Shown piece by piece: positions 1,432-51,236 of a DNA stretch of 64,000 bases. Position numbers and translations under genes: made by a program. The notes under the pieces are model-generated. The model searched no databases, was not told the DNA's origin, and was given only the letters and a program-made list of their open reading frames with translations. Source of the DNA: Escherichia phage EC6; sequence record JX560968; one strand, written 5' to 3'. How positions within the stretch are numbered: position 1 is the first letter of the stretch; every line of letters starts with the position of its first letter.

Positions 1432-2526
1432 TTGTTAAATCTCTGTTAATACCACGTAAAAACCTTGTAAGAGTCTTTGGCATAGCCTTAAAAGCCCCTG
1501 TAAAGCCCTATAAAGAGCTATCCATACAGTTGAGGGGTAAATACTAGGAAGATGCTTAAAAGAGCCTATAAAGAGTTATAGAGAGCTTTTAAGAGGTATG
1601 TTTAAGGAATCACTAAGAAAGGAAAGGGAATGATAAGACCAGAGATAGTGACCATGTTAATAGCTTGTTAAAAAGATTAAGCACTTGTTAGGAACTTGTT
1701 AATTATCTTAACAAAATAACTCTTTAAAATTAACTTGTTAGCTCTTGTTAGCCATCTGTTAAGCATCTGTAAAGACTATTCAGCACTTGTTAAGAAACTG
1801 TTACAGCCTTGTTAGTTCTGTTAAGAATCTGTTAAGACCTCTGAAGAGATGTTAAGAAGATGTAGTAACTGTTAAGAGATTGTTAATGATATTTTAAAAT
1901 TCTGCAAAGGGGGTGTTAAGGAGCTGTTAAGGGCTACCAAGCAGATATACATCTTCTACAGATATTTTTCAGTTCCTTCAAAGACCCTAAAAAACGACTT
2001 GATAGTCCTATTTTATAAAAATTTTAAAATTCTGAATAATTACCTAGACAGTCTTTTAAAAATACAGGCATAAACAGGCTTATAAGATACCTTGTTAGTA
2101 CCGTGTTAGACCTTGTGAGATAAGGTCTGTAAAGATATTCCTGTTAAGTTTGTTAAAACAGTCTATATAGAGGCTTAGTAATACCTAGTGAACACCTATA
2201 GAGGGTAACATAGCTAACCTAGAGATTAAGAGGTGTATAGGAGCTTCTAAGAGGGTGTAGAGGTATGGTTAAGGTGATTGTATAGGTTGTTAAGAAGGCT
2301 TGTTAGAAGAGTGTTTAGAAGGGCTATACAGAGGGGCTATTAAGACCACTAGATAGATACTAAGATACTATATAGTACTATATAACTATATAGAGAGTAA
2401 GATTAAGGAGGTTGTTAAGAAGGATAGATATTTTATTCACATATGATGGTGACCCAGAGGTTGGGACAACCGATAAAATTTTATAAAAATTAAAAAGCCC
2501 CCAATTAAGGAGGCTCTTAAGATATT

Positions 2527-3120
2527 TTAAATCAGTGTTTCCAGAACTGTTTTTAGTGATGACTTGGTTGTCTGATAAAAATGAGTAAATCCATTGTTAT
2601 TATCGAATACCTGCATCATGATATCATCACCCTTGATTGGGTAAACTCGAATATCGTAGTGAAAACCATTAAAGACACAAGAACCACTACAGAATGCTCT
2701 AAAGTCATCCACTGAGATATACTCTTCATGGCCTGTGATTTTTATACAAACACCTTTACTCGGTCTCTTAGGGTTGATATCTTCCATCACAGACATACTC
2801 TGCCCACCAAGAGAGACCATAGTGACCACTTTACGGTTCTTCTGTCTAAAGTACATCTTAACTTTCTGTAAAGTGTCTTCATAGAACGGATAAGACCTTT
2901 CTACAAAGATTCCTTCAAGTGGCTCTTTACCATTTTCAACTTCTCGGTTATGCCGTACTGCAAAGATAATTTGTTGGAACCAGTCAAGATTTTCTTCGGA
3001 GAGTCCTTCCCGAATATCATTCCAGTCAAGGACTAGATAGTTACCTTCAACTTCTTTTAAGTTGTCTTCTTTCATAACTATCACACCATTATCGTAAAAC
3101 TTGGTAAGCTGGAACTGCAA
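2527..3120 (-). CDS. hypothetical protein (197 aa)
   Basis: Long ORF in the minus-strand gene block; no recognised motif. Confidence 0.5.
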   Translation of the reverse strand: MQFQLTKFYDNGVIVMKEDNLKEVEGNYLVLDWNDIREGLSEENLDWFQQIIFAVRHNREVENGKEPLEGIFVERSYPFYEDTLQKVKMYFRQKNRKVVTMVSLGGQSMSVMEDINPKRPSKGVCIKITGHEEYISVDDFRAFCSGSCVFNGFHYDIRVYPIKGDDIMMQVFDNNNGFTHFYQTTKSSLKTVLETLI

Positions 3121-3553
3121 ACTTGTTGCTGTTGTTCTTAATGAGGTCTTCTTCTGTTACTAAGAATGTAATCCCACATAAGTGTGTGTAGTGGCTATCA
3201 TACTCAAATATTTTAAATAAGTATTTACCATCGTGATAAACAGATTCTACTACACCTTTTGCAACAATCTTTCCAGTCTTGAAGTCTTTAAGGTGGTATA
3301 CATTACCAACTTTAGGAACTGTTTTCATCTCAGGTTCTTTTAGCTCCTCACCAGCTTCTACATCGCCTAGTAAGTAAGAACTCTCAAACGCTACATATTG
3401 CATATAAGCTTCTGAACATTCCCAGATAAAACAATGTACAAGAACCTTAGCAGCATGTCTTGAGCAATTCAACTCATCACAGATTTCTTTGTACATTTCA
3501 TCTTTAGTTGAATTGGTAAGCATTGCTTTTCGAACTGTTTCTTTAATTTTCAT
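3089..3553 (-). CDS. hypothetical protein (154 aa; start may be internal)
   Basis: ORF overlapping neighbours on both sides; Cys/His-containing N-terminus. Confidence 0.4.
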   Translation of the reverse strand: MKIKETVRKAMLTNSTKDEMYKEICDELNCSRHAAKVLVHCFIWECSEAYMQYVAFESSYLLGDVEAGEELKEPEMKTVPKVGNVYHLKDFKTGKIVAKGVVESVYHDGKYLFKIFEYDSHYTHLCGITFLVTEEDLIKNNSNKFAVPAYQVLR

Positions 3554-4326: not shown

Positions 4327-4830
4327 CTATAATTGTAGGTTGCATTCTTTACTTACCTCTTCAAGTTTAACCTCAGAATCCTTAAGTCGTTTCTTATGAA
4401 CTCTGAATCTTATTAGTGAGATGATGATACCAACTAAAGGGACAACATACAAGTACCAAACATCATATACCTTTGCAGTAATCTGTGTAATGGTCAAGTC
4501 TTGAGCTATGTAGCTGATTGCTGAGACGGCTAGTAATGTTGCTAAGAAGAAAACCAGTATCATAACAATATTCAGACAACCTCTGGCATGGTATTCATGC
4601 TTAATGCACTTATTCTTCTCTTCAACAACCCTGTTGTAGTCATTTGTAAAGTCTCTGTAGAAAGCTTTCAAGTATTCTTGACTGTAGCCTTCAAAGCAAC
4701 CTGTACCGTACCAATAATCACCACCGAAATGTGCTATGATACCAGTATCTCCATTTGGTTTGGTTACTTTCAAAGAAGTATGATGGCGAGTGTCCTGATA
4801 ATCTATCTTATATCTTTCTTCGTAAATCAT
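4327..4830 (-). CDS. predicted membrane protein (167 aa)
   Basis: Two hydrophobic helix-like segments (VMILVFFLATLLAVSAISYI, YLYVVPLVGIIISLI) after a soluble N-terminal domain. Confidence 0.45.
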   Translation of the reverse strand: MIYEERYKIDYQDTRHHTSLKVTKPNGDTGIIAHFGGDYWYGTGCFEGYSQEYLKAFYRDFTNDYNRVVEEKNKCIKHEYHARGCLNIVMILVFFLATLLAVSAISYIAQDLTITQITAKVYDVWYLYVVPLVGIIISLIRFRVHKKRLKDSEVKLEEVSKECNLQL

Positions 4831-5045
4831 TTTTCAATCCCTCTCAATCGTTTGTTCCACTCAAGGTCAACAAGTCTTTGCAGGACTTTCCCTCTAGGTG
4901 TTACACCTTTTAAATCTGCATCGTAACAATGGTAAAAATCACCTTCAGCATGTCTACCATAGCATTTTCTGATGTTCTGACTTCTACGATACTGCTCTAA
5001 TAGGGACAGTTTGTAGTAATCTTCAACTGTAGTTAGTTTTTTCAT
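4827..5045 (-). CDS. hypothetical protein (72 aa)
   Basis: Small ORF; stop overlaps the downstream start. Confidence 0.4.
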   Translation of the reverse strand: MKKLTTVEDYYKLSLLEQYRRSQNIRKCYGRHAEGDFYHCYDADLKGVTPRGKVLQRLVDLEWNKRLRGIEK

Positions 5046-5384
5046 TCTTTCACCACATATCTTCTCAAGAAACTAAAAAGGGAACTACCTCTCGATAGCT
5101 CCCATCATAGTTAATGTTGTATATTCGGTCAAGAGTATTTTTTAGGCAGTAATGCACTGCGCTTGTTGCTCTCTTCACTCAATAGTGCGATAAACTCATC
5201 ACCTTTCCCTTTCCACGGGCTGAATGTAGGGATGTGCTCCCTGATAGCATCAATCACTGTTTTCAGGGCGTTGTTCTTTAACCACCAATCAGACACTGCC
5301 GAAGCTACAATGTAGTAAGCACCGTCATCTGTGAAGATTGGCTCAGAGATACATGGTGAAATCATAGTGGTAATGATAGAACCA

Positions 5385-5711
5385 TTATTCATGTAGTATG
5401 TTCTTTTTTTCAACCTTATCAAGAAGCTTATGAAGGTCTGCAAAGAGACTTACCACCTCTTTATGGTCAATATCTTTTTCAAGATTTGCCCTGTATTTCA
5501 ATAGTGCAGCATCAACCTCTTTATCATTGAATTTGAAGTATTGGACTTCTTCATTCACACATACACTGATATTGTTGGTGTTTATCGTCAATTTGCACAG
5601 TTTGACTGGAGAATTGATGTTGGTCTGAAAAAGTGCTACACAGCCTTCTACATTCCCGAAATGTTTGACTAATGTAACTTCTGGTTGGATATGTTCATGC
5701 TCTTCTGACAT
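5385..5711 (-). CDS. hypothetical protein (108 aa)
   Basis: ORF in minus block; the overlapping ORF 5129-5443 may be a separate short gene with an internal start. Confidence 0.45.
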   Translation of the reverse strand: MSEEHEHIQPEVTLVKHFGNVEGCVALFQTNINSPVKLCKLTINTNNISVCVNEEVQYFKFNDKEVDAALLKYRANLEKDIDHKEVVSLFADLHKLLDKVEKKNILHE

Positions 5712-5989
5712 TATAGTTTCCTCATTAAATACTTTTTAAGTTGTGTGTTAGGTTTCTCAAAAACTTCTATAGAAGATATCTTGACAGACTCACCACGCAT
5801 ACCTGTATGTTTAAATATGTAATACTCTAACATCCCTATGTACTTTGCTGGTAAGTCATGTTTGACATAGACTGTTACAGAATCTTCAAATTCAACAACC
5901 TTTGTACCATCCTTGTAGTTAAACTCTCTAGGGTGGTTGTAGTTATCAATGTCATACATTAAAAACGAGTCTTTTCCGTTGCATGTCAA
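5711..5989 (-). CDS. hypothetical protein (92 aa)
   Basis: ORF in minus block. Confidence 0.45.
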   Translation of the reverse strand: MTCNGKDSFLMYDIDNYNHPREFNYKDGTKVVEFEDSVTVYVKHDLPAKYIGMLEYYIFKHTGMRGESVKISSIEVFEKPNTQLKKYLMRKL

Positions 5990-7644: not shown

Positions 7645-8276
7645 TATGCCCCTCCTGCTGGGTTAACTGTAACTGTTGCTGCATTAGATGTTACAGAGCC
7701 ACCTGCACCAGTTACTACGCAAGTGTAGCTTCCTGCATCAGCAGTAGTTGCACCTTCTTTGGTGTAAGTTGCAGTCGTTGCGTCTGGGATGTCTTCCTCA
7801 CCCTTCTTCCACTGATATCCAGTGGCGTTAGTTGCGATAACGCTTAAGGTGAGCGTGCCACCCTCATTGACCGTTTGGTTTGTTGGTTGTTGAGTAATTG
7901 CTGGTGGCTTAATAGCATCCTTCAGCTTAGCATTCAACATTGAGAAAGGTTTAACTCTTGCCAGCCATTCACAGTAAATTGTGTCAACATCTTTACCGTT
8001 GATGATTGCATACTGTAAATCCATGAAGAAATCAGCAGTCCTCATCTGTGCACCAACACTGTAAAGGAGCTCATCACTAAAAGGGACTTTGTAGTCTGGT
8101 TTGTAGTCAAACTTCTCAACCTCTGCAATATCAGCTTCAGGCCAATATGAGCTATAGGTGAGTGGTAAAATAGCTTCTTGATATGTTCTAAAATCATATC
8201 TCTTACCAGCCTTTACATTTGCAATGAAGCCCTTTACAAATTCTTTGAAGTCTGGATAAGTCTTTGCTTTAATCAT
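7644..8276 (-). CDS. hypothetical protein with C-terminal Ig-like domain (210 aa)
   Basis: C-terminal GGTLTLSV...YQWKK...DAGSYTCVV pattern typical of Ig/I-set-like domains; N-terminal 130 aa is paralogous to the next gene. Confidence 0.5.
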   Translation of the reverse strand: MIKAKTYPDFKEFVKGFIANVKAGKRYDFRTYQEAILPLTYSSYWPEADIAEVEKFDYKPDYKVPFSDELLYSVGAQMRTADFFMDLQYAIINGKDVDTIYCEWLARVKPFSMLNAKLKDAIKPPAITQQPTNQTVNEGGTLTLSVIATNATGYQWKKGEEDIPDATTATYTKEGATTADAGSYTCVVTGAGGSVTSNAATVTVNPAGGA

Positions 8277-15916: not shown

Positions 15917-15995
15917 GCTCCATTACTCCAATTGGCAGAGAGGCCAGACTTAAAATCTGTGTTATGTATCGGTTCGAATCCGATATGGAGTACCA
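15917..15995 (+). tRNA. tRNA with anticodon TAA (Leu-type anticodon) on a class-I-length scaffold
   Basis: Acceptor GCTCCAT/ATGGAGT, anticodon loop CTTAAAA, 6-nt variable loop, perfect T-arm ATCGG-TTCGAAT-CCGAT, CCA encoded. Confidence 0.45.
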
Positions 15996-16000
15996 AATTT

Positions 16001-16076
16001 AGCGGTATAGCATAACTGGCAATGCAGCAGTCTCTGAAGCTGTCTTATTAAGGTTCAAATCCTTATGCCGCTGCCA
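16001..16076 (+). tRNA. tRNA-Gln (anticodon CTG)
   Basis: Acceptor AGCGGTA/TGCCGCT, D-stem GCAT/ATGC, anticodon loop CTCTGAA, T-arm TAAGG-TTCAAAT-CCTTA, CCA encoded. Confidence 0.55.
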
Positions 16077-16107
16077 CTTCTAAGGATTCTTACGAGAGTC
16101 CTTAAAT

Positions 16108-16183
16108 GTGGCCTTATCATAAATGGTAATGACCCATGCTGTGAACATGGTCTATACGGGTTCAAATCCCGTAGGTCACCCCA
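16108..16183 (+). tRNA. tRNA-His (anticodon GTG)
   Basis: Acceptor GTGGCCT/AGGTCAC, anticodon stem CCATG/CATGG with loop CTGTGAA, T-arm ACGGG-TTCAAAT-CCCGT, CCA encoded. Confidence 0.6.
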
Positions 16184-16188
16184 ATTTA

Positions 16189-16265
16189 TAGTCCAAGTAG
16201 CTTATATGGTTAAAGCGCGTGTCTGAAAAACATGAGAAGAGGGTTCAAATCCCACTGGACTACCA
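16189..16265 (+). tRNA. tRNA-Phe (anticodon GAA); ends approximate
   Basis: D-stem GCTT/AAGC, anticodon stem CGTGT/ACATG with loop CTGAAAA, T-loop TTCAAAT; the acceptor register is ambiguous by 1-2 nt. Confidence 0.5.
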
Positions 16266-16281
16266 ATTTCAAAGGTGCTTA

Positions 16282-17016
16282 ATGAAAGAGATGACAGAAC
16301 AAGGTAAGGAGATTTTTAATCTCTTAAAAACTGGTAAAGGGTTTTCTAACCCCCTTATTACTGGTGCAGCAGTTCTCGGTGGAACCGTAGCTGCCTCTAC
16401 ATCACTTGTAAGCTCTATTAGCTCTGTATCAGACCCTACAGTAAAGGATAAGCTTGTTGCTGCTGGACTTACAACAGTTCTGCTTAACAGCTTTACCACG
16501 AGTCTGACAAGCACTACATCAACTACCAAAACACTGACAGATTACGGTCAAAAGTCCATTGATGAGTTTTCATCACGTATGCAGGTAGCAAAAGGTTATT
16601 CTAATGTTATGGGTGCAGCAGGTGAACAAGTTGGCTGTACACCGTTTAGTGGTATTATGGGTGTTGCTACAGAATATGGTCAAAAAGCTATTGACACAAT
16701 TAACAGTGCACTAGACGGTGTTAATGATGTATTAAGTGACTTACAAGACGCTATTGACAAAGGTCTTGATACTATTTCTGATTTAGCTAACCAAGCTGTT
16801 AGTAAGATTAATGAAGGTATCTCGAAGATTACAGCTTATGCAGATGAAGTTGTGCAGATGATTGAAGAAGAAGCTGCCCTTATTGCAGAGTACCTTAAAA
16901 CGAATATCAATGGGTTCTTAGCAGGTATCTTACCAGACTGGTTTGATGATGCTTGTAAAACTGGTGTAATTGACACTATTGCAACACCAGAAATGAAGAG
17001 CGCATTACAGAAATAA
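16282..17016 (+). CDS. hypothetical protein (244 aa)
   Basis: ORF in the tRNA cluster; the ATG at 16282 with an AAAGG RBS is preferred over the upstream in-frame start, which overlaps tRNA-Phe. Ser/Thr-rich N-terminal region. Confidence 0.45.
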   Translation: MKEMTEQGKEIFNLLKTGKGFSNPLITGAAVLGGTVAASTSLVSSISSVSDPTVKDKLVAAGLTTVLLNSFTTSLTSTTSTTKTLTDYGQKSIDEFSSRMQVAKGYSNVMGAAGEQVGCTPFSGIMGVATEYGQKAIDTINSALDGVNDVLSDLQDAIDKGLDTISDLANQAVSKINEGISKITAYADEVVQMIEEEAALIAEYLKTNINGFLAGILPDWFDDACKTGVIDTIATPEMKSALQK

Positions 17017-17037
17017 TGGAAGATTAACCCTAAAAGG

Positions 17038-17130
17038 TAAGGGAGCAGTTTGCTAAACTGCCAGTAGCTGAGAAATCGGTGTACCAGTTCAAGTCTGGTA
17101 TCTTCCTCCAATTTGAATCCGTGACAGAAA
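17038..17130 (+). tRNA. tRNA-Ser (anticodon GCT), long variable arm
   Basis: Perfect acceptor GGAAGAT/ATCTTCC, 3-bp D-stem CCC/GGG, anticodon stem GCAGT/ACTGC with loop TTGCTAA, ~21-nt variable arm, T-arm ACCAG-TTCAAGT-CTGGT, CCA encoded. Confidence 0.65.
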
Positions 17131-17134
17131 TGGC

Positions 17135-17210
17135 TATGTACCTGTCTGCAAAACAGGTTTATAAGGGTTCGAGTCCCTTCGGATTCTCCAAGTTATTTTA
17201 CTCTCTCTCA
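17135..17210 (+). tRNA. tRNA-Cys (anticodon GCA)
   Basis: Acceptor GAATCCG/CGGATTC, anticodon stem CCTGT/ACAGG with loop CTGCAAA, T-arm AAGGG-TTCGAGT-CCCTT, CCA encoded. Confidence 0.6.
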
Positions 17211-17634: not shown

Positions 17635-19235
17635 ATGGACTTAAATGCTGTTAAGCAGAAGCGAGTGGAAGATGTTAGGAAAGTCCTAGCTGGAGAGTTG
17701 GGGCTTTCTGATGAAGTAAAAGAAATTATCAAATCATTCGGTAAAGACCCCTCTAAATTCCTTCCAACTCAAATTCTGACTTTATTAAGATACACCCCAG
17801 ACCAAGTTAGACTTATCTTCAAATTGATGACTGATAAGAACTATGTAGCCCCTCAGCCGGGTTCTCAAGAGGTCTTTTTAAATACTAATGCTGACTTGGT
17901 TCTCTATGGTGGTGCTGCGGGTGCTGGTAAGACTGCTGCATTGTTGATGGACTCTTTAAGATTTATTGAAGACCCTAACTATAATGCTGTGTATTTCCGT
18001 CGAAACACAACACAGTTACAAGGTGGTTTATGGCCTGCTGCAAAGAAACTATTTGGTAAGTTTGGTGGGGTTCCTCACGAGCAGAAGATGACTATCACAT
18101 TCCCTTCTGGGGCAACTATCAAGTTTACCTACCTAGAACTTGAAAAGCACGCTGAAGGTCATCAGGGTATTGAATACTCAGCTATTTACTTTGACGAAGG
18201 TACTCACTTCTCTGCTTCACAGATTTCATACCTACAGACTCGTCTGCGTTCTGGGGCTGAAGGTGACTCATACATGAAGATTTCCATGAACCCAGACAGA
18301 GACCACTTTATTTACGATTGGGTAGAACCATTCTTAGATGAAGAAGGTTACCCAGACCCTGAAAAGTGTGGTCGTATTCGTTGGTATGTAATGAATGATG
18401 GTGTTATGGTTTCTGATTGGGAGAGAGACAAGATTCTTGAAATGTTTCCTCTTGAGATTCCTCAAACATATACATTCATCTCTGGTACGATTGATGATAA
18501 CCCAATCCTTGACTTCTTGGAACCTAAATATCGTGGTAAGTTGGAAAACAACACCCCTGTAAACGTTGCAAGACTTCGTTTCGGTAACTGGAAGGCTCGT
18601 GCAGAAGGTTCAAACTATTGGCAAAGACAATGGTGTGAGATTGTTGATTCACTCCCAGAAGATGTGTTTGATGTCAGAGCATGGGACTTAGCAGCAACTT
18701 TACCATCTGAAATTAACCCTAACCCAGACTGGACAGCGGGTGTTAAGATGGGTAAATCTAAAAAGACGGTTGCTATTATATCATTGATGTAGTAAGATTT
18801 AGAGATAGACCCTCTGGAGTTGAAACACAAATTAATTTGACTGCTGAAAGTGACGGTAAGCGAACTGGTATTTTTATCCCTCAAGACCCAGGCGCTGCTG
18901 GTAAATCCTATGCAACATCCCTCATCAGGAAACTTGCCGAGAAAGGTTATCGCGCAAGAGCTAAACCAACAAATAAAGATAAAGTTACCCGCTTTGCGGG
19001 ATTTTCTGCTGCTTCTGAAGCTGGACTTGTAAAAGTCTTGAGAGGCAGTTGGAACGAAGCTTACTTTCAAGAACTTGAAGGCTTTTGTGGTGATGGTAAA
19101 ACTAAAGATGACCAAGTGGATGCTACCAGTGATGCTTTCAACAGTCTTAACGAAGTTAAATTATTCAAGCCACCATCAATGGGTGCTCACACAGACTTAG
19201 TGAGAGGAAACCCATATGAGGGGCTTAGACGTTGA
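17635..19235 (+). CDS. terminase large subunit; reading frame interrupted at A5 run 18760-18764
   Basis: Walker A YGGAAGAGKT in the N-terminal ATPase domain; nuclease-domain motifs (WDLA..DWTAG, then YYIIDVVRFR and DDQVDA) continue in the -1 frame from ~18762 to 19235; the ATG at 17635 has a GGAGG RBS. Confidence 0.7.
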
Positions 19236-19251
19236 TAGCTAGGTGAGAAGA

Positions 19252-20717
19252 ATGGCAGAAATTACAGAAACACAAGAAAGCTTACCACCATTTAGAATGG
19301 GTGAAGTAGGTTCTTTGGGTCTGAAGGTTAAGAATGGTAGAATCTATGAAGAACCTCGTCAGGCACTAAGGTTCCCTGAAAGTATTAAAACTTTCCAATT
19401 AATGATGCGTGACCCTGCTGTAGCAGCATCTGTAAATATTATTAAGATGTTTGTTAGAAAAGTCAACTGGAGATTCGTACCTCCAAAGGGAAAAGAGCAA
19501 GACCCTAAAATGCTTGAAAGAGCAGACTTCTTTAATTCTTTAATGGATGACATGGAGCATGATTGGGCAGATTTTATTAACTCTGTAATGTCATTCTGCA
19601 CTTATGGGTTCTGTGTTAACGAAAAGGTTTATAAGAAACGTCAGGGTAAAAAGGAAAGTACCAGTCAAAATTTGATGATGGTCTAATTGGGTGGGCTAAA
19701 TTACCAATCAGAAACCAATCGACACTTGATAAGTGGTATTTTGACGAAGACTTTAGAAAAGTTACTGGTGTTAGGCAGAATCTGAGAAATGTTTCACATA
19801 TTGCTGGAGCAATTAATCTTGGAGAAAGACCACTAACAAGAAAACTCCCACGAGCTAAATTCATGTTGTTTAAGTATGATGACGAATATGGAAACCCAGA
19901 AGGTCGTTCACCATTACTTAATGCCTATGTACCGTGGAAGTATAAAGTACAGATTGAAGAGTATGAAGCTGTTGGTGTTTCAAGAGACTTGGTAGGTATG
20001 CCAAAGATTGGTTTACCACCAGATTATCTGGATGAAAATGCAGAACCTGAAAAGAAAGCTTTCGTACAATACTGCAAAACTGTTGTTAATGATATGATTG
20101 CAAATGACAGAGCAGGTTTAATCTGGCCTAGATATATCGACCCAGATACTAAAGAGGATATTTTCGAGTTCTCATTAGTCTCTAGACAGGGTGCTAAAGC
20201 ATACGACACAGGTTCTATTATTGACAGATATTCCAAGCAGATTATGATGGCATTTATGTCAGATGTTCTTGCTATGGGTCAGTCAAAATATGGTTCATTC
20301 TCTCTTGCAGATTCTAAGACAAGCTTACTAGCAATGTCAGTAGATATTCTGCTGAAGCAAATTAAGAACGTAATTAACCGTGATTTAGTTGCACAGACTT
20401 ATGCTCTTAATATGTGGGACGATGAAGAACATGTACAAATCACATATGATGATATCGAAACTCCAGACCTTGAAGCAATTGGTTCTTATATTCAGAAAAC
20501 TGTTGCAGTAGGTGCTTTGGAAGTTGACAAAGAGCTATCTAACAAGCTTAGAGAGCATATTGGTCTTCCTCCTGCTGATGAGTCTCAGCCAGTATCTGAA
20601 AAGCTTTCTCCAAACAGTCAAAGCCGTTCAGGAGATGGTTATAAGACCGCTGGAGAAGGTACTGCAAAGACACCTTCAGCAAAAGACCCAAGCACAGCAA
20701 ATAAGGCAAATAAATAA
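19252..20717 (+). CDS. portal protein; reading frame interrupted at A5 run 19648-19652
   Basis: Position directly after terminase; the N-terminal 135 codons (frame 1) and the C-terminal ~355 codons (frame 0) are separated only by a -1 shift at GGTAAAAAGG; the combined ~490 aa is typical of portals. Confidence 0.55.
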
Positions 20718-47400: not shown

Positions 47401-47613
47401 TCAGAGGTCAATACTAATACGTTCACCCTTAAGAACACCTGTGCGGTCTCTTGCAATCTTTCCGTCAATGATAATGATATGCGCAGACATTAAGGAATCA
47501 CGATTAAAACCTTTTACGAACTTACTAGGCATCACCACAATAAGCATCTCTTGAATCAACTCTGGAGTGTAGCAGTTGTTGTGAAGTTGCTGAATAACGT
47601 CTGAAAGTGTCAT
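47401..47613 (-). CDS. hypothetical protein (70 aa)
   Basis: Small ORF downstream of the DNA polymerase. Confidence 0.35.
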   Translation of the reverse strand: MTLSDVIQQLHNNCYTPELIQEMLIVVMPSKFVKGFNRDSLMSAHIIIIDGKIARDRTGVLKGERISIDL

Positions 47614-47674
47614 ATAACCTCCTATATAAGATATTGTATAAGGTACTCTTCCATGAGCACCTTGTCAATACTAA

Positions 47675-48231
47675 TTAGTGTACTTCAAGCCAGCTTTTAC
47701 CAACCTTACCAGTACCTGTAACAAGCGTTTCTTTCTTAAGACCTAAGTTTTTAGAAGCTTGCCCATAATACCAGTCAGTAACTGCTTTCACTTCTGCCGT
47801 CATACTTTCTGGACATTCCCAACTCGTCTCGTCGTGATAGGAGCACAATAAACGAGCACCTATAGCTGGTTTGCGACCGTTCAACTTCATCAAACCTTCG
47901 TCAATCATACGACGGCAAGCAAGGTTAATTGCTTCATTCTGAACCTGCGCCTCACTACCCATTAGGGTATAGTTTAATAGTTTATGCGGTGATTTACACC
48001 ATAACCACGCCCCAGCGACCTGAATGTACCCACCCTTAGCGATTGCAGCACTCTTGCCGAAAACCTCTTCTAATGCCTTCTTAGTGGCCTTAAAATCGGC
48101 TTCTAAGTTATCAAGTAGTTTCTTAATCTTTGGTAGACGCATATAGTAGGTCTGCTTAGTTAATGCACCTTCCTCTGTAGAAGCTGCCTTAATGGTCTTG
48201 GCAAACTTCTCATCACCTGCACCGAACAATA
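47675..48231 (-). CDS. DNA polymerase (family A), 3-prime exon / C-terminal part
   Basis: Begins LFGAGDEKFAK, the second half of Pol A motif B (compare T7 YGFLYGAGDEK), and contains motif C LLCSYHDE; no independent ATG (the frame enters via TTG). Confidence 0.65.
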
Positions 48232-49036
48232 CATCTGGTCAATACACTCGCAAGGTGTACCAGTTCTCTTATGAACTTCTCCGCATTTCTACGGAGTGTC
48301 GGACTATATCACGCAGTAGTAATACTACCGTTGCACTTGGGAATGGTCATTAGCTTACCACCCTACTCTACTCAGTTCATACATTAAGTATGCTTTTCGA
48401 TAGTCTCTGAACGTTTCTCTGTTAGGAACTCTAAAATACTATTATTTACTAAGGTATGCAATTGCTCTCTTCATGTTCTCTATACTATCTGAGAACAGCC
48501 CAAGACCTCTGTTACAGTTGTGACACAGCATACCTCTTACCTGTCCTGTTTTGTGGTCATGGTCAACAACCAGCTTGGCTTTATGTCTTGAACCATCCAT
48601 GATAAAACCTTCACCACCGCAGATTTGACACTTGTGACCACACTTACTTAGTAACTCTTCGACCTCTTCTCTTTCTAAGCCGTAAGTCCTTAAGTAATAG
48701 TTCTTTACCCTTCCCTTTTCTCCACAAGCAGAACTGCAATACGTCTGTCTTGCTGTTCTAGGTGTAAACTGGTTATTGCAGCTTGGACATATTTTCTCTA
48801 TGACACGACTTGCTGCTCTTCTGTCTACTTCAAGAACGCAGTTTCTACAACGTTTTTGATTGTACTGATATGGCTTAAACTCTTCGCCACATCTGGAACA
48901 AACTCTTTCTTTATAACCTGCCATTGTCTCTCTCCCATTTCTACTATAGGAGTCCTAACAGAGACTTCGCTGCTGATTACCATATCTTTACAGACTTAGG
49001 CTTCCAGCAATTCACAACGTTTTACATGCGCCACTG
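48232..49036 (-). mobile_element. intervening sequence in DNA polymerase gene (group I intron-like) carrying an endonuclease ORF; boundaries approximate
   Basis: Splits Pol A motif B between RKKAKNGIYA and LFGAGDEK; an in-frame stop follows 17 codons into the insert; contains a free-standing Endo VII/HNH ORF; the proposed junction obeys the exon-U / intron-terminal-G rule. Confidence 0.5.
48442..48924 (-). CDS. HNH-superfamily endonuclease (Endonuclease VII-like), intron-encoded homing endonuclease candidate
   Basis: Signature VVDHDHKTGQVRGMLCHNCNRGLG plus two N-terminal Cys4 zinc-ribbon-like motifs; lies wholly inside the polymerase insertion on the same strand. Confidence 0.65.
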   Translation of the reverse strand: MAGYKERVCSRCGEEFKPYQYNQKRCRNCVLEVDRRAASRVIEKICPSCNNQFTPRTARQTYCSSACGEKGRVKNYYLRTYGLEREEVEELLSKCGHKCQICGGEGFIMDGSRHKAKLVVDHDHKTGQVRGMLCHNCNRGLGLFSDSIENMKRAIAYLSK

Positions 49037-51179
49037 ACGCATAGATACCATTCTTAGCCTTCTTACGGCCTTTAGTTATCTCGTGAAGAAGTTCTTCATC
49101 CTGAGTTTCTCTACAACGAATAATGTCATCCTCTTTGTTCAATGCAAAGTAGATGCTGTTAAGCGTATGTGCATCAGTACCTGTATACACCTCATATAAG
49201 TCATTATCCATATCGTAACGACAATACTTGTCAGTCTCTGGATTGAGGTACTTGTCAAGATGTTTGCAGTAGTACCGTCCATCATCCTGTTTAGTGAACT
49301 CGACAAACTCTTTACCTTCAGTTACTGCTTTAGTGAACTCTTTATCACCCATAAAGTTACACAGTAAAACAAGCTGTGCAGAGTTCTGGTCAACTGAAAC
49401 GATGTTAGTCCCTTCCTCACAAATCCACACCTCCCTCATAGGTGCTCCATAGACAGCAGCACCAGATGGTACGTTTACAATACCATACTGCGTCATACGT
49501 CCAGTTGAAGTACCAAACACCATTGCACCAGCACTAAGGCGACCATCTGGACGAATCTGGTTCAACCAACCTTTTTCATCATCCTTTGAGTTCTCAATAG
49601 TTCTGCGTCGGTGCATCAAAGTATAGTACTTAGCAATCTTCTGTCCAAGTTCACCTTCAATCGTATCATAAGATGATTCAGTAAGTTTTGGTGAAGTACG
49701 GATTAAGCAAGGCTCAAGCAAATCTGTGTACTTCTTCACAGACCAGTTATGCTCAATGTACTGTACACCTTCATGTTCAACATAACTCAAACCACACCGC
49801 TCAACCATTTCCTGCCACTTAGGATGCTTTGTAATCATCTTTTTATTGTCTTTGAAACGACAAACTTTGACAGGGTGACCATCTGAGTCTTTCTTGTAGT
49901 TCCAGTCATCTGGAATCCAACCAACTGATTTCAAGTAGTCTTTAACAACTGCTACCTGAGTCATACGAGAAACTTCAAACTCAATTGGTGTATATGGTGC
50001 ATCAATCAAACCTGTGTAGCGACTTGACTCAAGTTCAAAGTGGTTAACAACGTGGCTGTTATAGTACTTCACAGTTTTGACTGTTTTTACTGGCTTCCAG
50101 TCTTTGCATTTCTTACCAATCTTTGCATTCAACTCATTGCAAATTGCACGAGCATCCTTCATTGCTACAAAGCCTTCCTTGTACTCTTCACCAGTTACAG
50201 AGTTGGTTGGTGTATAGCAATTTCTCTTTTCAATGTTAAAAATCTTTGTAGTTGGCTTACCAAATGGCTTGATTTCGTATGTCTGCATCTCACCGTTACG
50301 TACCTGCTGACGATACTTTGTCTTAGGATACTTGGTAATCCTCTTCAGTCCATCTGCATGACCAAATGTTTCAACATACTCATTCCAAGCTTTTGCAAAC
50401 TCTTCTCCAGTGACTTTACCTTTGGTCTTAATAGTTGGAGGAAGATGTGGTTCAACCTCTGAAGCAAGCTCATTAGTCAACTTGTCAAGTTCCTTTACAT
50501 GGAACTCCATAAGCTCTTTATCAGCTTTCCAACCATTGATAGCTTGTTGACTCATCCAGAAAGATGTTTCTTTAGCTCGCATGTAAGTTTCATAAGTGTC
50601 TATACCACACTTCTTAAGCTTGAGATACTCGTTATCAAGTGCCCGTTTAGTTTTGGCGTTAATACGGATATCTTCTACAACACGAGTGAAGATTTCTGCA
50701 TTCCACACACCCCAATGTTCAATCTCTGGTTTACGAACACCAACACGAGCACCCCATGCAGCCAAACCATGAGCACCTTTATAACCCTTTGGAGTTGGTC
50801 TATCCATCCACTGAACACGAGACTGGATAAGAGAATCCTGAAAGAAATTACTCCACGGTTTACACTTTGGATTATCAAAGTTCCATAAATCAGGTGCAAT
50901 GTGATTGAAAACCCACCAGTCATAACCGAGACCGTTGTGGATGCAAAGACGTTTTGCCTTTAACGCAAACTCAATACCTTCACGTAAGCCACCCTTGATG
51001 TACTTGGTATACTTGTGACCGAGGATAGGCTCATCTGTAAAGACCCATACAGGTGGCTCTTCATCATCAGATTTATAGTCTGCGAAAGCCATTACGTGCA
51101 CTTTAGTGAACTCAAGGAGTAAACCATCAGTTTCTGTATCACCAACTAAATGTAAGTTTTTAAAATCTACGTTTTCCAT
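49037..51179 (-). CDS. DNA polymerase (family A), 5-prime exon with 3-prime-5-prime exonuclease domain
   Basis: Exo I motif VGDTETDG; palm motif A-like SVDQNSAQL; ends in the first half of motif B (GRKKAKNGIY); the internal ATG at 51179 has a GAGGGAG RBS and is preferred over the annotated 51209 start. Confidence 0.7.
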
Positions 51180-51236
51180 TTTTACTCCCTCTAAAATCAT
51201 TAACCTCATACATTACTGCAAAAAATTATAAAAAGC

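What the first reader, a model, noticed from the sequence alone, without database searches (positions are those of the whole stretch)
47675..51209. Family-A DNA polymerase gene split inside motif B by a ~0.8-kb insertion carrying an Endo VII/HNH endonuclease (group I intron candidate)
The upstream exon ends in RKKAKNGIY and the downstream ORF begins LFGAGDEK: together these rebuild the Pol A O-helix motif B (RxxxKxxxYG...YGAGDEK in T7). An in-frame stop follows 17 codons into the insert, and the downstream part has no ATG or RBS of its own. A junction with exon 1 ending at the T at 49037 and exon 2 starting at 48231 satisfies the group I rule (exon ends in U, intron ends in G) and gives RKKAKNGIYALLFGAGDEK with T7-like spacing. 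The insert encodes a 160-aa Endo VII-type HNH protein. The alternative is a polymerase expressed as two polypeptides around a free-standing homing endonuclease.
Basis: partly seen in the sequence, partly recalled or inferred. Interest (0 to 1): 0.65.

Follow-up and report, generated by a model that had tools for sequence, protein, structure and literature searches.

The report
Self-splicing intron in phage DNA polymerase
The DNA polymerase gene of this Felix O1-like phage is interrupted by an ordinary mobile group I intron that carries its own homing nuclease gene; the same element has already been noted in sister phages, so it is real but not new.

Summary
The window comes from a Felixounavirus, 97% identical to phages Barry, Tribble and SPT-1. 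Its family-A DNA polymerase gene (minus strand) is interrupted at 49036..48232 by an 805-nt insert.

- About 57 related phages carry the same insert without the nuclease gene (268 or 311 nt). These natural versions pass the Rfam group I intron threshold (61.7 and 62.3 bits; cut-off 50).
- Across 22 family members including the window, 94.5% of the modelled pair cells are paired, against 30-47% in slid controls, with many compensatory changes.
- P1 (with U.G at the 5' splice site), P10 and the terminal G are all present.
- The 160-aa ORF loops out of P6a. It is an Endo VII-motif ('DHHRN') homing endonuclease with intact catalytic residues.

The ribozyme parts are 92-99.5% conserved where the flanking exons are only 75-78% identical.

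Fang et al. 2018 already listed the nucleases of sister phages (FSL SP-010, JH2, EC6) as intron-encoded. Splicing itself has not been tested. The one modest point of interest is that three phage groups carry related introns at three sites within 11 nt of motif B.

The parts
49037..51179 (-). Polymerase exon 1: exonuclease domain and polymerase motifs up to the first half of motif B, ending ...RKKAKNGIYA plus the first base of a Leu codon. The ORF finder's first ATG is at 51209; ATG 51179 with the SD GAGGGAG is the likelier start.
48232..49036 (-). Group I (IA2-type) intron, 805 nt. It begins CAGUGG... and ends ...CCAGAUG with the terminal G at 48232.
   Evidence: Exactly absent from wV8 and Felix O1 alleles. 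ORF-less alleles pass Rfam RF00028. Covariation.
47675..48231 (-). Polymerase exon 2: the rest of motif B (L)LFGAGDEK through motif C to the stop codon. It has no ATG or SD of its own.
49026..49042 (-). P1. Exon bases AUGCGU (49042..49037) pair with the internal guide GCGCAU (49031..49026), giving a U.G wobble at the 5' splice site. The loop CAGUG (49036..49032) can pair with exon 2 UAUUG (48231..48227) to form P10.
   Evidence: Read directly from the sequence. All 12 intron-containing alleles share GCGT|TATTG.
48971..49019 (-). P3 5' strand CGUUGUG (49019..49013). P4 UGCUGG/UCAGCA (49009..49004 with 48976..48971). P5/P5a with a GUAA tetraloop (49000..48980).
   Evidence: Rfam partial hit on the window, 22.9 bits, E = 0.0037. 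Covariation.
48416..48970 (-). P6 (GC 48970..48969 with GU 48412..48411) and a 12-bp P6a stem, UCUCUGUUAGGA (48964..48953) with UCCUAACAGAGA (48427..48416). The stem encloses the endonuclease gene.
   Evidence: P6/P6a covariation. REP10 has a compensatory U-A to C-G change.
48442..48924 (-). Homing endonuclease gene, 160 aa. The N-terminal half has two Cys4 zinc-finger-like repeats (C9/C12/C26/C29 and C46/C49/C63/C67). The C-terminal half is an Endo VII-motif (DHHRN) nuclease domain with C99xxC102, D121, H122, H124, R130, C134xxC137 and N138. The SD-like GGGAGAG lies at 48936..48930.
   Evidence: Pfam PF02945, E = 6e-20. Closest solved structure is the Hpy99I nuclease domain, E = 2.5e-7. Residues.
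48301..48407 (-). Catalytic core, 3' half. P7 GAGACUA (48407..48401) pairs with UAGUCC (48306..48301) as a pseudoknot with a bulged A. P7.1 (48392..48378), P7.2 (48363..48339), P3 3' strand UGCAACG (48335..48329) and P8 UAGUA/UACUG (48327..48314).
   Evidence: P8 has a compensatory U-A to C-G change in VpaE1.
48232..48296 (-). P9 with a GAAA tetraloop (48296..48279), the P9.1 hairpin GUUCAUAAGAGAAC (48276..48263), P9.2 (48262..48236) and the terminal G (48232).
   Evidence: The P9.1 sequence is shared with Jarilo and Yersinia-phage polymerase introns.

Best explanation
The insert is a mobile group I intron of the phage IA2 type.

Splicing (inferred). The polymerase gene is transcribed as one pre-mRNA. 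The intron RNA folds into the P3-P9 catalytic core. P1 presents the U.G pair at 49037, and an external guanosine attacks there. The freed exon-1 3'-OH then attacks after the terminal G at 48232, with exon 2 held by P10. The ligated mRNA encodes an uninterrupted family-A polymerase of about 899 aa with an intact O-helix (motif B).

Homing (inferred). The 160-aa protein encoded in the P6a loop is a homing endonuclease with an Endo VII-type catalytic motif. In mixed infections it would nick or cut intron-less polymerase alleles near the insertion site. Repair from the intron-bearing genome would then copy in the intron together with a few flanking exon bases.

What is shown here: the exact boundaries, the folded core with covariation, the restored reading frame, and the population pattern. 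That pattern includes intron-less alleles, an intron with an intact nuclease gene, an intron with a frameshifted nuclease gene, and an intron with the nuclease gene deleted.

What is inferred: splicing itself and nuclease activity.
For: 1. Boundaries. Intron-less alleles (wV8, Felix O1 and 16 others) differ from the window by exactly the 805 nt at 49036..48232. They read Y-A-L-L-F-G across the site.

2. ORF-less versions. Of 260 Felixounavirus-type records, 96 carry the insert and only 39 carry it at full length. The rest keep just 268-311 nt of ribozyme.

3. Rfam. These ORF-less alleles differ from the window at only 7 positions in the 264 nt compared (78 nt at the 5' end, 186 nt at the 3' end). 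They match Rfam RF00028 over the full model at 61.7 and 62.3 bits, against a gathering score of 50. The window's own P3-P6 domain matches at 22.9 bits, E = 0.0037.

4. Family. The J6/7-P7 motif UUCAGAGACUAUCGAAA occurs in at least 120 viral contigs.

5. Covariation. In a 22-sequence alignment including the window, RNAalifold recovers P3, P4, P5, P6, P6a, P7.1 and P9 de novo. With P7 added, 94.5% of cells are paired against 30-47% when partners are slid. The covariation score is 0.556 against 0.09-0.14, 23 of 38 pairs show double changes, and 0 of 500 shuffles reach the observed values.

6. Splice-site elements. P1 AUGCGU/GCGCAU with U.G, P10 CAGUG/UAUUG and the terminal G are present.

7. Restored protein. 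The spliced product aligns without a gap to T7 gp5 residues 517-638.

8. Conservation pattern. Ribozyme segments are 92-99.5% identical between lineages whose flanking exons are 75-78% and nuclease genes 70-76% identical. VpaE1 has a compensatory change in P8 and a 22-nt frameshifting deletion in its nuclease gene.

9. Exon flanks. All 12 intron-containing alleles have the flanks GCGT|TATTG, and none of 18 intron-less alleles does. This fits P1 constraint and co-conversion.

10. Nuclease. It matches PF02945 and keeps the DHHRN catalytic residues.

11. Literature. Fang et al. 2018 list the homologous proteins of FSL SP-010, JH2 and EC6 as intron-encoded.
Against: - There is no RNA evidence of any kind for splicing in this phage or in any Felixounavirus examined here.
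- The window's own intron does not reach the Rfam gathering score. The 525-nt insertion in P6a splits the match.
- The single-sequence folding energy of the ORF-less intron is not unusual (z = -1.49).
- P7 and most of P4 are invariant, so they give no covariation signal. The alignment members were also collected with a P7-region motif.
- No P2 helix is evident.
- Nuclease activity and its target site are unknown.
Confidence: 0.93

Rival explanations
1. Split polymerase. [quoted passage not shown] The two parts are translated separately and assemble into an active enzyme without RNA splicing, as reported for some phage ribonucleotide reductase genes.
For: GenBank records of relatives annotate two 'DNA polymerase' CDSs plus an endonuclease. 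An in-frame TTG exists at 48229. No splicing data exist.
Against: About 57 related genomes keep a 268-311-nt insert with no endonuclease gene at the same site. That insert matches the group I model above threshold. Exon 2 has no Shine-Dalgarno sequence. The break falls in the middle of the O-helix, between residues that contact the incoming nucleotide. The non-coding flanks of the insert are more conserved than the coding sequence around them.
Confidence: 0.03
2. Dead intron or pseudogene. The insert derives from a group I intron but no longer splices efficiently, so the polymerase gene is inactive or only partly active in this phage.
For: Splicing is untested. The homing-cycle model predicts eventual decay, and decay of the nuclease gene is seen in VpaE1.
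Against: The same intron sits in dozens of independently isolated, plaque-forming phages. Its core is 92-99.5% conserved and shows compensatory changes. No second polymerase gene was noticed near the locus.
Confidence: 0.03
3. Protein-level or translational solution. The insert is an intein, or it is bypassed by the ribosome.
For: None beyond the fact that the gene is interrupted inside a conserved motif, which is a typical intein site.
Against: The exon 1 frame hits a stop 13 codons into the insert. The nuclease ORF is in its own frame with its own start. No intein motifs were found by Pfam. 805 nt is not a multiple of three.
Confidence: 0.005

Closest known systems
The same intron in sister Felixounaviruses (FSL SP-010, JH2, EC6, '2 JES-2013'), listed as carrying intron-encoded Endo VII-motif endonucleases by Fang et al. 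2018 (PMC6083498)
   Same: It is the same element. The FSL SP-010 locus is 95% identical over the whole 3.5 kb, and the JH2 insert is 81% identical. Same host gene, same site, same nuclease family.
   Different: The main text and the supplement passages searched only label the proteins 'intron-encoded'. No structure, boundaries, host-gene site or splicing test for them was seen there. The GenBank records sampled annotate two polymerase CDSs and no intron.
Pseudomonas phage LUZ24 DNA polymerase group I intron with an Endo VII-type ORF (Ceyssens et al. 2008, as cited in PMC6083498)
   Same: Family-A polymerase and motif B. The nuclease is homologous, sharing a zinc finger and the C-terminal Endo VII motif. 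The IA2-like core has GAGACUA...GAUAUAGUCC.
   Different: The deduced LUZ24 splice site lies inside the Tyr codon (ATCT|ATGCG), 6 nt upstream of the Felixounavirus site. The host is a podovirus. The window's nuclease has an extra N-terminal zinc finger.
T7-like (Berlin-type) polymerase introns, seen here in Pectobacterium phage Jarilo and a Yersinia phage
   Same: Motif B. The Endo VII-motif nuclease is homologous (46% identity for the Yersinia phage; by eye about 65% over the C-terminal nuclease domain for Jarilo). The P9.1 hairpin GUUCAUAAGAGAAC is shared.
   Different: The deduced site lies inside the Phe524 codon (T7 numbering), ACGUU|U, 11 nt upstream of the Felixounavirus site. The internal guide sequence is different.
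Group IA2 introns of T7-like phages PhiI and W31 (Bonocora and Shub 2004; details as quoted in PMC3428280 and from my own recollection)
   Same: IA2 subgroup, nuclease ORF inserted in P6a, family-A polymerase gene of an enterobacterial phage. Self-splicing was shown experimentally for those introns.
   Different: The insertion site is different: position 881 in E. coli Pol I numbering, against about 763/764 here (my alignment of motif B). The nuclease I-TslI is described as classical HNH.
SPO1, SP82, Bastille and Pf-WMP3 polymerase introns with nicking HNH endonucleases (I-HmuI, I-HmuII, I-BasI, I-PfoP3I)
   Same: Group I introns in conserved motifs of family-A polymerase genes, mobile through a beta-beta-alpha-metal nuclease. 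The Pf-WMP3 intron also lacks P2 and has its ORF in P6a.
   Different: The site is 674 in E. coli numbering. The nuclease is of the classical HNH subfamily. The hosts are Gram-positive bacteria or cyanobacteria.

Membership tests
Group I intron (Rfam RF00028) | Sequence and structure match to the catalytic core P3-P9 at or above the curated threshold | tested here: met
   Natural ORF-less alleles of the same insert score 61.7 bits (REP10) and 62.3 bits (Mushroom), against a gathering score of 50. The window copy alone gives only a partial P3-P6 hit (22.9 bits, E = 0.0037), because the 525-nt ORF-bearing loop in P6a splits the match. Over the 264 nt compared (78 at the 5' end, 186 at the 3' end) the window differs from REP10 at 7 positions.
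Group I intron (Rfam RF00028) | Helices supported by compensatory base changes | tested here: met
   94.5% of cells are paired against 30-47% in slid controls. 23 of 38 pairs have double changes and 0 of 500 shuffles reach the observed values. P3, P6, P6a, P7.1 and P9 covary. P7 and most of P4 are invariant and so uninformative.
Group I intron (Rfam RF00028) | 5' splice site after a U that forms a U.G pair in P1 with an internal guide sequence; the intron ends in G; P10 is possible | tested here: met
   AUGCGU|/GCGCAU with U49037.G49031. The terminal G is at 48232. CAGUG can pair with exon 2 UAUUG.
Group I intron (Rfam RF00028) | Removal restores an uninterrupted, conserved host gene | tested here: met
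   Intron-less alleles differ by exactly 805 nt. The spliced product aligns without a gap to T7 gp5 motif B.
Group I intron (Rfam RF00028) | Guanosine-initiated self-splicing | not testable with these tools
   Needs RNA from infected cells or in-vitro transcription.
Subgroup IA2 | Extra hairpins P7.1 and P7.2 between P7 and the 3' strand of P3 | tested here: met
   Hairpins at 48392..48378 and 48363..48339. Their basal pairs covary. There is no P2, as reported for the Pf-WMP3 IA2 intron.
Endo VII-motif (DHHRN) homing endonucleases (Fang et al. 2018) | Endonuclease_7 domain with CX2-4C, D-H-(D)-H, R, CX2C and N, placed at the C-terminus | tested here: met
   PF02945 at 71.4 bits against a cut-off of 23.6, covering residues 79-159. 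C99xxC102, D121, H122, H124, R130, C134xxC137 and N138 are present. It aligns to the Hpy99I nuclease domain.
Endo VII-motif (DHHRN) homing endonucleases (Fang et al. 2018) | Site-specific cleavage of the intron-less allele and homing | not testable with these tools
   There is only indirect support: the patchy distribution and the intron-linked exon flanks.
Classical HNH homing endonucleases (I-HmuI type) | Match to an HNH-family profile with the central Asn | tested here: not met
   The Pfam scan at E <= 0.01 returned only Endonuclease_7. Fang et al. separate this motif from HNH. Both belong to the same beta-beta-alpha-metal superfamily.
Intein | Insert in frame with the host protein, with no stop codons | tested here: not met
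   There is a stop 13 codons into the insert, and 805 nt is not a multiple of 3.
[quoted passage not shown] | Each gene half has its own translation signals, and nothing lies between the halves except the nuclease gene | tested here: not met
   Exon 2 has no SD or ATG. About 320 nt of conserved structured RNA flank the ORF, and that RNA persists where the ORF is deleted.

The most novel reading that the evidence does not exclude
The Felixounavirus site lies inside the Leu codon that follows Y-A of motif B, about position 763/764 in E. coli Pol I numbering. It has not been described as a polymerase intron site; the paper consulted names 674, 676 and 881. Together with the LUZ24 site (6 nt upstream) and the Berlin/Jarilo site (11 nt upstream), it forms a cluster of three sites within 11 nt, each occupied by a related IA2 intron carrying a homologous Endo VII-motif nuclease. 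This would be a natural series for studying how an intron, its guide sequence and its nuclease re-target between adjacent sites of one conserved DNA stretch.
Probability: 0.35. Interest if true: 0.35.

Novelty: already known. Interest (0 to 1): 0.15.

Why it matters
The main value is for annotation. The public records of related phages that were sampled here list this locus as two polymerase genes plus an endonuclease. One record (Barry) even labels the endonuclease 'DNA polymerase I'. The correct description is a single spliced gene.

The intron-less, intact-nuclease, frameshifted-nuclease and nuclease-deleted forms within one phage genus give a clean snapshot of the homing-endonuclease life cycle.

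Biologically this is a textbook case of a mobile group I intron in a conserved motif of an essential phage gene. It does not open a new question.

Tried and rejected
- Rfam on the window itself. The gathering mode finds only 23 tRNAs. The permissive mode finds only the P3-P6 half of the intron, below threshold. I therefore relied on the natural ORF-less alleles.
- Single-sequence folding of the 268-nt allele recovers most helices, but its energy is not unusual (z = -1.49). It is not used as evidence.
- The promoter and terminator scan found nothing inside the intron, so I make no claim about separate transcription of the nuclease gene.
- A possible second intron was suggested by P4-like motifs on the + strand at 7896 and 8030. 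I rejected it: there is no Rfam hit even at E <= 1, and the region is filled by minus-strand ORFs.
- I considered building my own covariance model and dropped the idea. RNAalifold plus pair counting on the MAFFT alignment already gave a clear answer. P8 and the inner parts of P5, P7.1 and P7.2 were left out of the counts because MAFFT misaligns those variable hairpins.
- The Bonocora and Shub 2004 paper could not be fetched. Its content is cited second-hand from PMC3428280 and from memory.
- Literature searches for a dedicated description of a Felixounavirus polymerase intron found none. They found only passing mentions.
Full report
**What the window is.** The 3.5-kb region matches 260 phage records. 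Nearly all are Felix O1-like myoviruses (Felixounavirus) of Escherichia, Salmonella, Shigella and Citrobacter. The best hits are phages Barry, Tribble and SPT-1 at 97% identity. The gene lies on the minus strand.

**Checking the observation.**
- A long ORF ends ...GRKKAKNGIYA and then reads into the insert.
- A 160-aa ORF follows at 48924..48442.
- A third ORF starts (L)FGAGDEK and runs to 47675.
- Pfam assigns both outer ORFs weakly to DNA_pol_A and the inner one clearly to Endonuclease_7 (E = 6e-20).

Three details need correction. The in-frame stop is 13 codons into the insert, not 17. Exon 2 has an in-frame TTG at 48229 that annotators use as a start, but it has no Shine-Dalgarno sequence. 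The polymerase most likely starts at ATG 51179, behind GAGGGAG.

**Exact boundaries from natural alleles.** The related records fall into coverage classes.
- About 39 have the full 805-nt insert.
- About 57 keep only its two ends (268 or 311 nt).
- The remaining roughly 164 lack it.

Aligning the window with wV8, Felix O1, REP10 and Mushroom shows that the uninterrupted genes read TAT GCA C|TG CTG TTC GGT or TAC GCC C|TG TTA TTT GGA, that is Y-A-L-L-F-G. The window has GCG T|[805 nt]|TA TTG TTC GGT. Moving the boundary by one base either way would give A-V-L or A-S-L. So 49037/48231 is the only junction that restores the conserved sequence. It also puts a U at the end of exon 1 and a G at the end of the insert. 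The spliced protein aligns without a gap across the junction to T7 DNA polymerase residues 517-638, the O-helix motif RDNAKTFIYGFLYGAGDEK.

**Is the insert a group I intron?**
- On the window itself, Rfam finds only the P3-P6 domain (22.9 bits, E = 0.0037). The nuclease gene sits inside P6a and splits the match.
- The natural ORF-less alleles differ from the window at only 7 positions in the 264 nt compared, 78 at the 5' end and 186 at the 3' end.
- They match the whole RF00028 model at 61.7 bits (REP10) and 62.3 bits (Mushroom). The gathering score is 50.
- The J6/7-P7 motif UUCAGAGACUAUCGAAA occurs in at least 120 viral metagenome contigs. The surrounding sequences show the same conserved blocks: AAUUGCUGG, AAUCAGCAG, GAGUAGAGUA and GAUAUAGUCC.

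I aligned 22 compact cores, including the window with its ORF-bearing loop replaced by GAAA. RNAalifold recovered P3, P4, P5, P6, P6a, the base of P7.1, and P9 without guidance. I then added the P7 pseudoknot and P7.2 and counted pairs.
- 94.5% of cells form standard pairs, against 30-47% when the 3' partners are slid by 1-3 columns.
- The covariation score is 0.556, against 0.09-0.14.
- 23 of 38 pairs show changes on both sides.
- No shuffle out of 500 reaches the observed values.
- P7 and most of P4 never vary, so they say nothing either way. The family was also collected with a P7-region motif.

**Anatomy in window coordinates.**
- P1: exon AUGCGU (49042..49037) pairs with GCGCAU (49031..49026), with U.G at the splice site.
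- P10: the P1 loop CAGUG can pair with exon 2 UAUUG.
- P3: 49019..49013 with 48335..48329.
- P4: 49009..49004 with 48976..48971.
- P5/P5a: carries a GUAA tetraloop.
- P6 and P6a: a 12-bp P6a stem (48964..48953 with 48427..48416) holds the nuclease gene in its loop.
- P7: GAGACUA/UAGUCC with a bulged A.
- P7.1 and P7.2: both present, which places the intron in subgroup IA2.
- P8, P9 (GAAA tetraloop), P9.1 and P9.2 follow, then the terminal G at 48232.
- I see no P2, as was also reported for the IA2 intron of cyanophage Pf-WMP3.

**Evidence from variation within the genus.** I compared the window with the VpaE1, BPS15Q2 and LNA6 lineages.
- Ribozyme segments are 92-99.5% identical.
- The 300 nt of exon on each side are only 75-78% identical.
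- The nuclease gene is 70-76% identical.
- VpaE1 has a compensatory U-A to C-G change in P8 and a 22-nt deletion that frameshifts its nuclease gene.
- REP10 has a compensatory U-A to C-G change in P6.
- Mushroom's 311-nt form still carries the last bases of a VpaE1-type nuclease gene.

Among 30 alleles sampled from isolates and IMG/VR, all 12 intron-containing ones have the exon flanks GCGT|TATTG. None of the 18 intron-less ones does. They have GCA CTG CTG, GCC CTG TTA and similar, and one has GCG TTA CTG. This fits the need for U.G in P1 and co-conversion during homing.

Taken together, the genus shows every stage of the homing cycle: empty site, intron with an intact nuclease gene, decaying nuclease gene, and nuclease gene lost.

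**The nuclease.** The C-terminal half (residues 79-159) is an Endo VII-type domain. Its closest solved relative is the nuclease domain of restriction enzyme Hpy99I (E = 2.5e-7); T4 endonuclease VII is a weak match. The residues that Fang et al. 2018 showed to be essential in this family (D, H, H, R, N and the two CxxC pairs) are all present. The N-terminal half has two Cys4 repeats, presumably for DNA binding. No classical HNH Pfam family matched. Homologues at 46% identity or more sit in polymerase introns of T7-like phages.

**Comparison with what is known.** Fang et al. 2018 (PMC6083498) state that the Endo VII-motif proteins of the myoviruses JH2, EC6, FSL SP-010 and '2 JES-2013' are intron-encoded. 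They place them in their new 'DHHRN' homing endonuclease family. FSL SP-010 and JH2 are among the hits to this very locus. Other literature:
- The Felix O1 genome paper reported no introns, which is correct, because Felix O1 has the empty site.
- Moreno Switt et al. 2013 noted endonuclease genes inserted into genes of Felix O1-like phages.
- One phage description lists 'two introns' without detail.
- I found no paper that gives the structure, the site or a splicing test for this intron.
- None of the GenBank records I sampled annotates it as an intron.

Known polymerase intron sites are 674, 676 and 881 in E. coli numbering. By reading the split genes directly I deduced three sites in motif B.
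- Jarilo and a Berlin-like Yersinia phage: inside the Phe524 codon, 11 nt upstream of the Felixounavirus site.
- LUZ24: inside the Tyr526 codon, 6 nt upstream.
- Felixounavirus: inside the next-but-one codon, which is Leu.

All three carry homologous nucleases. This clustering is the only mildly novel point.

**Rivals.** A polymerase made as two polypeptides is contradicted by three observations. The nuclease-free 268-311-nt inserts sit at the same site. Exon 2 lacks translation signals. The break falls in the middle of the O-helix. A non-splicing relic is unlikely, given the many viable isolates and the tight conservation of the core. An intein or translational bypass is excluded by the reading frames.

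**Verdict.** This is a real, correctly interpreted and ordinary feature: a mobile IA2 group I intron with an Endo VII-motif homing endonuclease in the polymerase gene of a Felixounavirus. The same element has already been flagged in the literature. Splicing and homing remain inferred, not shown.

Noticed in passing
L006 (Erwinia phage MIF8, PP700702) 2955-3202, + strand of the locus: An unannotated group I intron (RF00028, 94.4 bits) with a core homologous to the window's intron. It starts right where the annotated 'RNAP2-like protein' CDS ends, in ...ITVHDA, which I recognise as the catalytic HD motif of T7/N4-type RNA polymerases. It is followed by a 220-aa ORF with an HNH-like motif. The RNA polymerase gene of this N4-like phage is probably intron-split.
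   Followed up: partly
L005 (Jarilo) 2680-3340; L130 (Yersinia phage) about 2320-3000; L152 (LUZ24) 19125-19815: Three phage groups carry related IA2 introns with homologous Endo VII-motif nucleases at three different sites within 11 nt of polymerase motif B. Jarilo and the Yersinia phage split inside the Phe codon, LUZ24 inside the Tyr codon, and Felixounavirus inside the Leu codon.
   Followed up: partly
L127 (VpaE1, KM657822) 409-869: The intron's nuclease gene has a 22-nt deletion and is annotated as two overlapping ORFs ('hypothetical protein' and 'endonuclease VII'). The ribozyme parts are intact, so this is a decaying homing endonuclease gene.
   Followed up: yes
L136 (IMG/VR 2706796096_000001), polymerase junction: This intron-less allele reads GCG TTA CTG. 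It has the intron-type bases GCGT|TA on the exon 1 side, unlike the common GCA CTG CTG. It could be a product of precise intron loss or a partial co-conversion tract.
   Followed up: no
L004 (Felix O1) 4672-5715; also L002 and L003 downstream of the polymerase gene; window 47401..47674: In Felix O1-type phages the polymerase gene downstream of the intron site is too diverged for megablast. A free-standing HNH (AP2-domain) endonuclease gene also overlaps or follows the polymerase stop codon. The window has no such gene there, only a 70-aa ORF. This may be a second, independent homing element acting on the 3' end of the same gene.
   Followed up: no
Public record LR880803 (phage Barry) 62663-63142: The intron's nuclease ORF, 100% identical to the window's, is annotated there as 'DNA polymerase I'. 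The related records I sampled annotate two separate polymerase CDSs and no intron.
   Followed up: partly
window 11934-17187, + strand: A cluster of 23 tRNA genes, typical of Felix O1-like phages.
   Followed up: no
L037, L044, L047, L079 (IMG/VR contigs): These contigs each carry two copies of the IA2 core motif UUCAGAGACUAUCGAAA within a few kb. They are phage genomes with several introns of this family close together.
   Followed up: no
window 7896 and 8030, + strand: P4-like motifs AATTGCTGG and AATCAGCAG lie 134 nt apart and looked like a second intron. There is no Rfam match at E <= 1 and the region is covered by minus-strand ORFs, so I take this as chance.
   Followed up: yes
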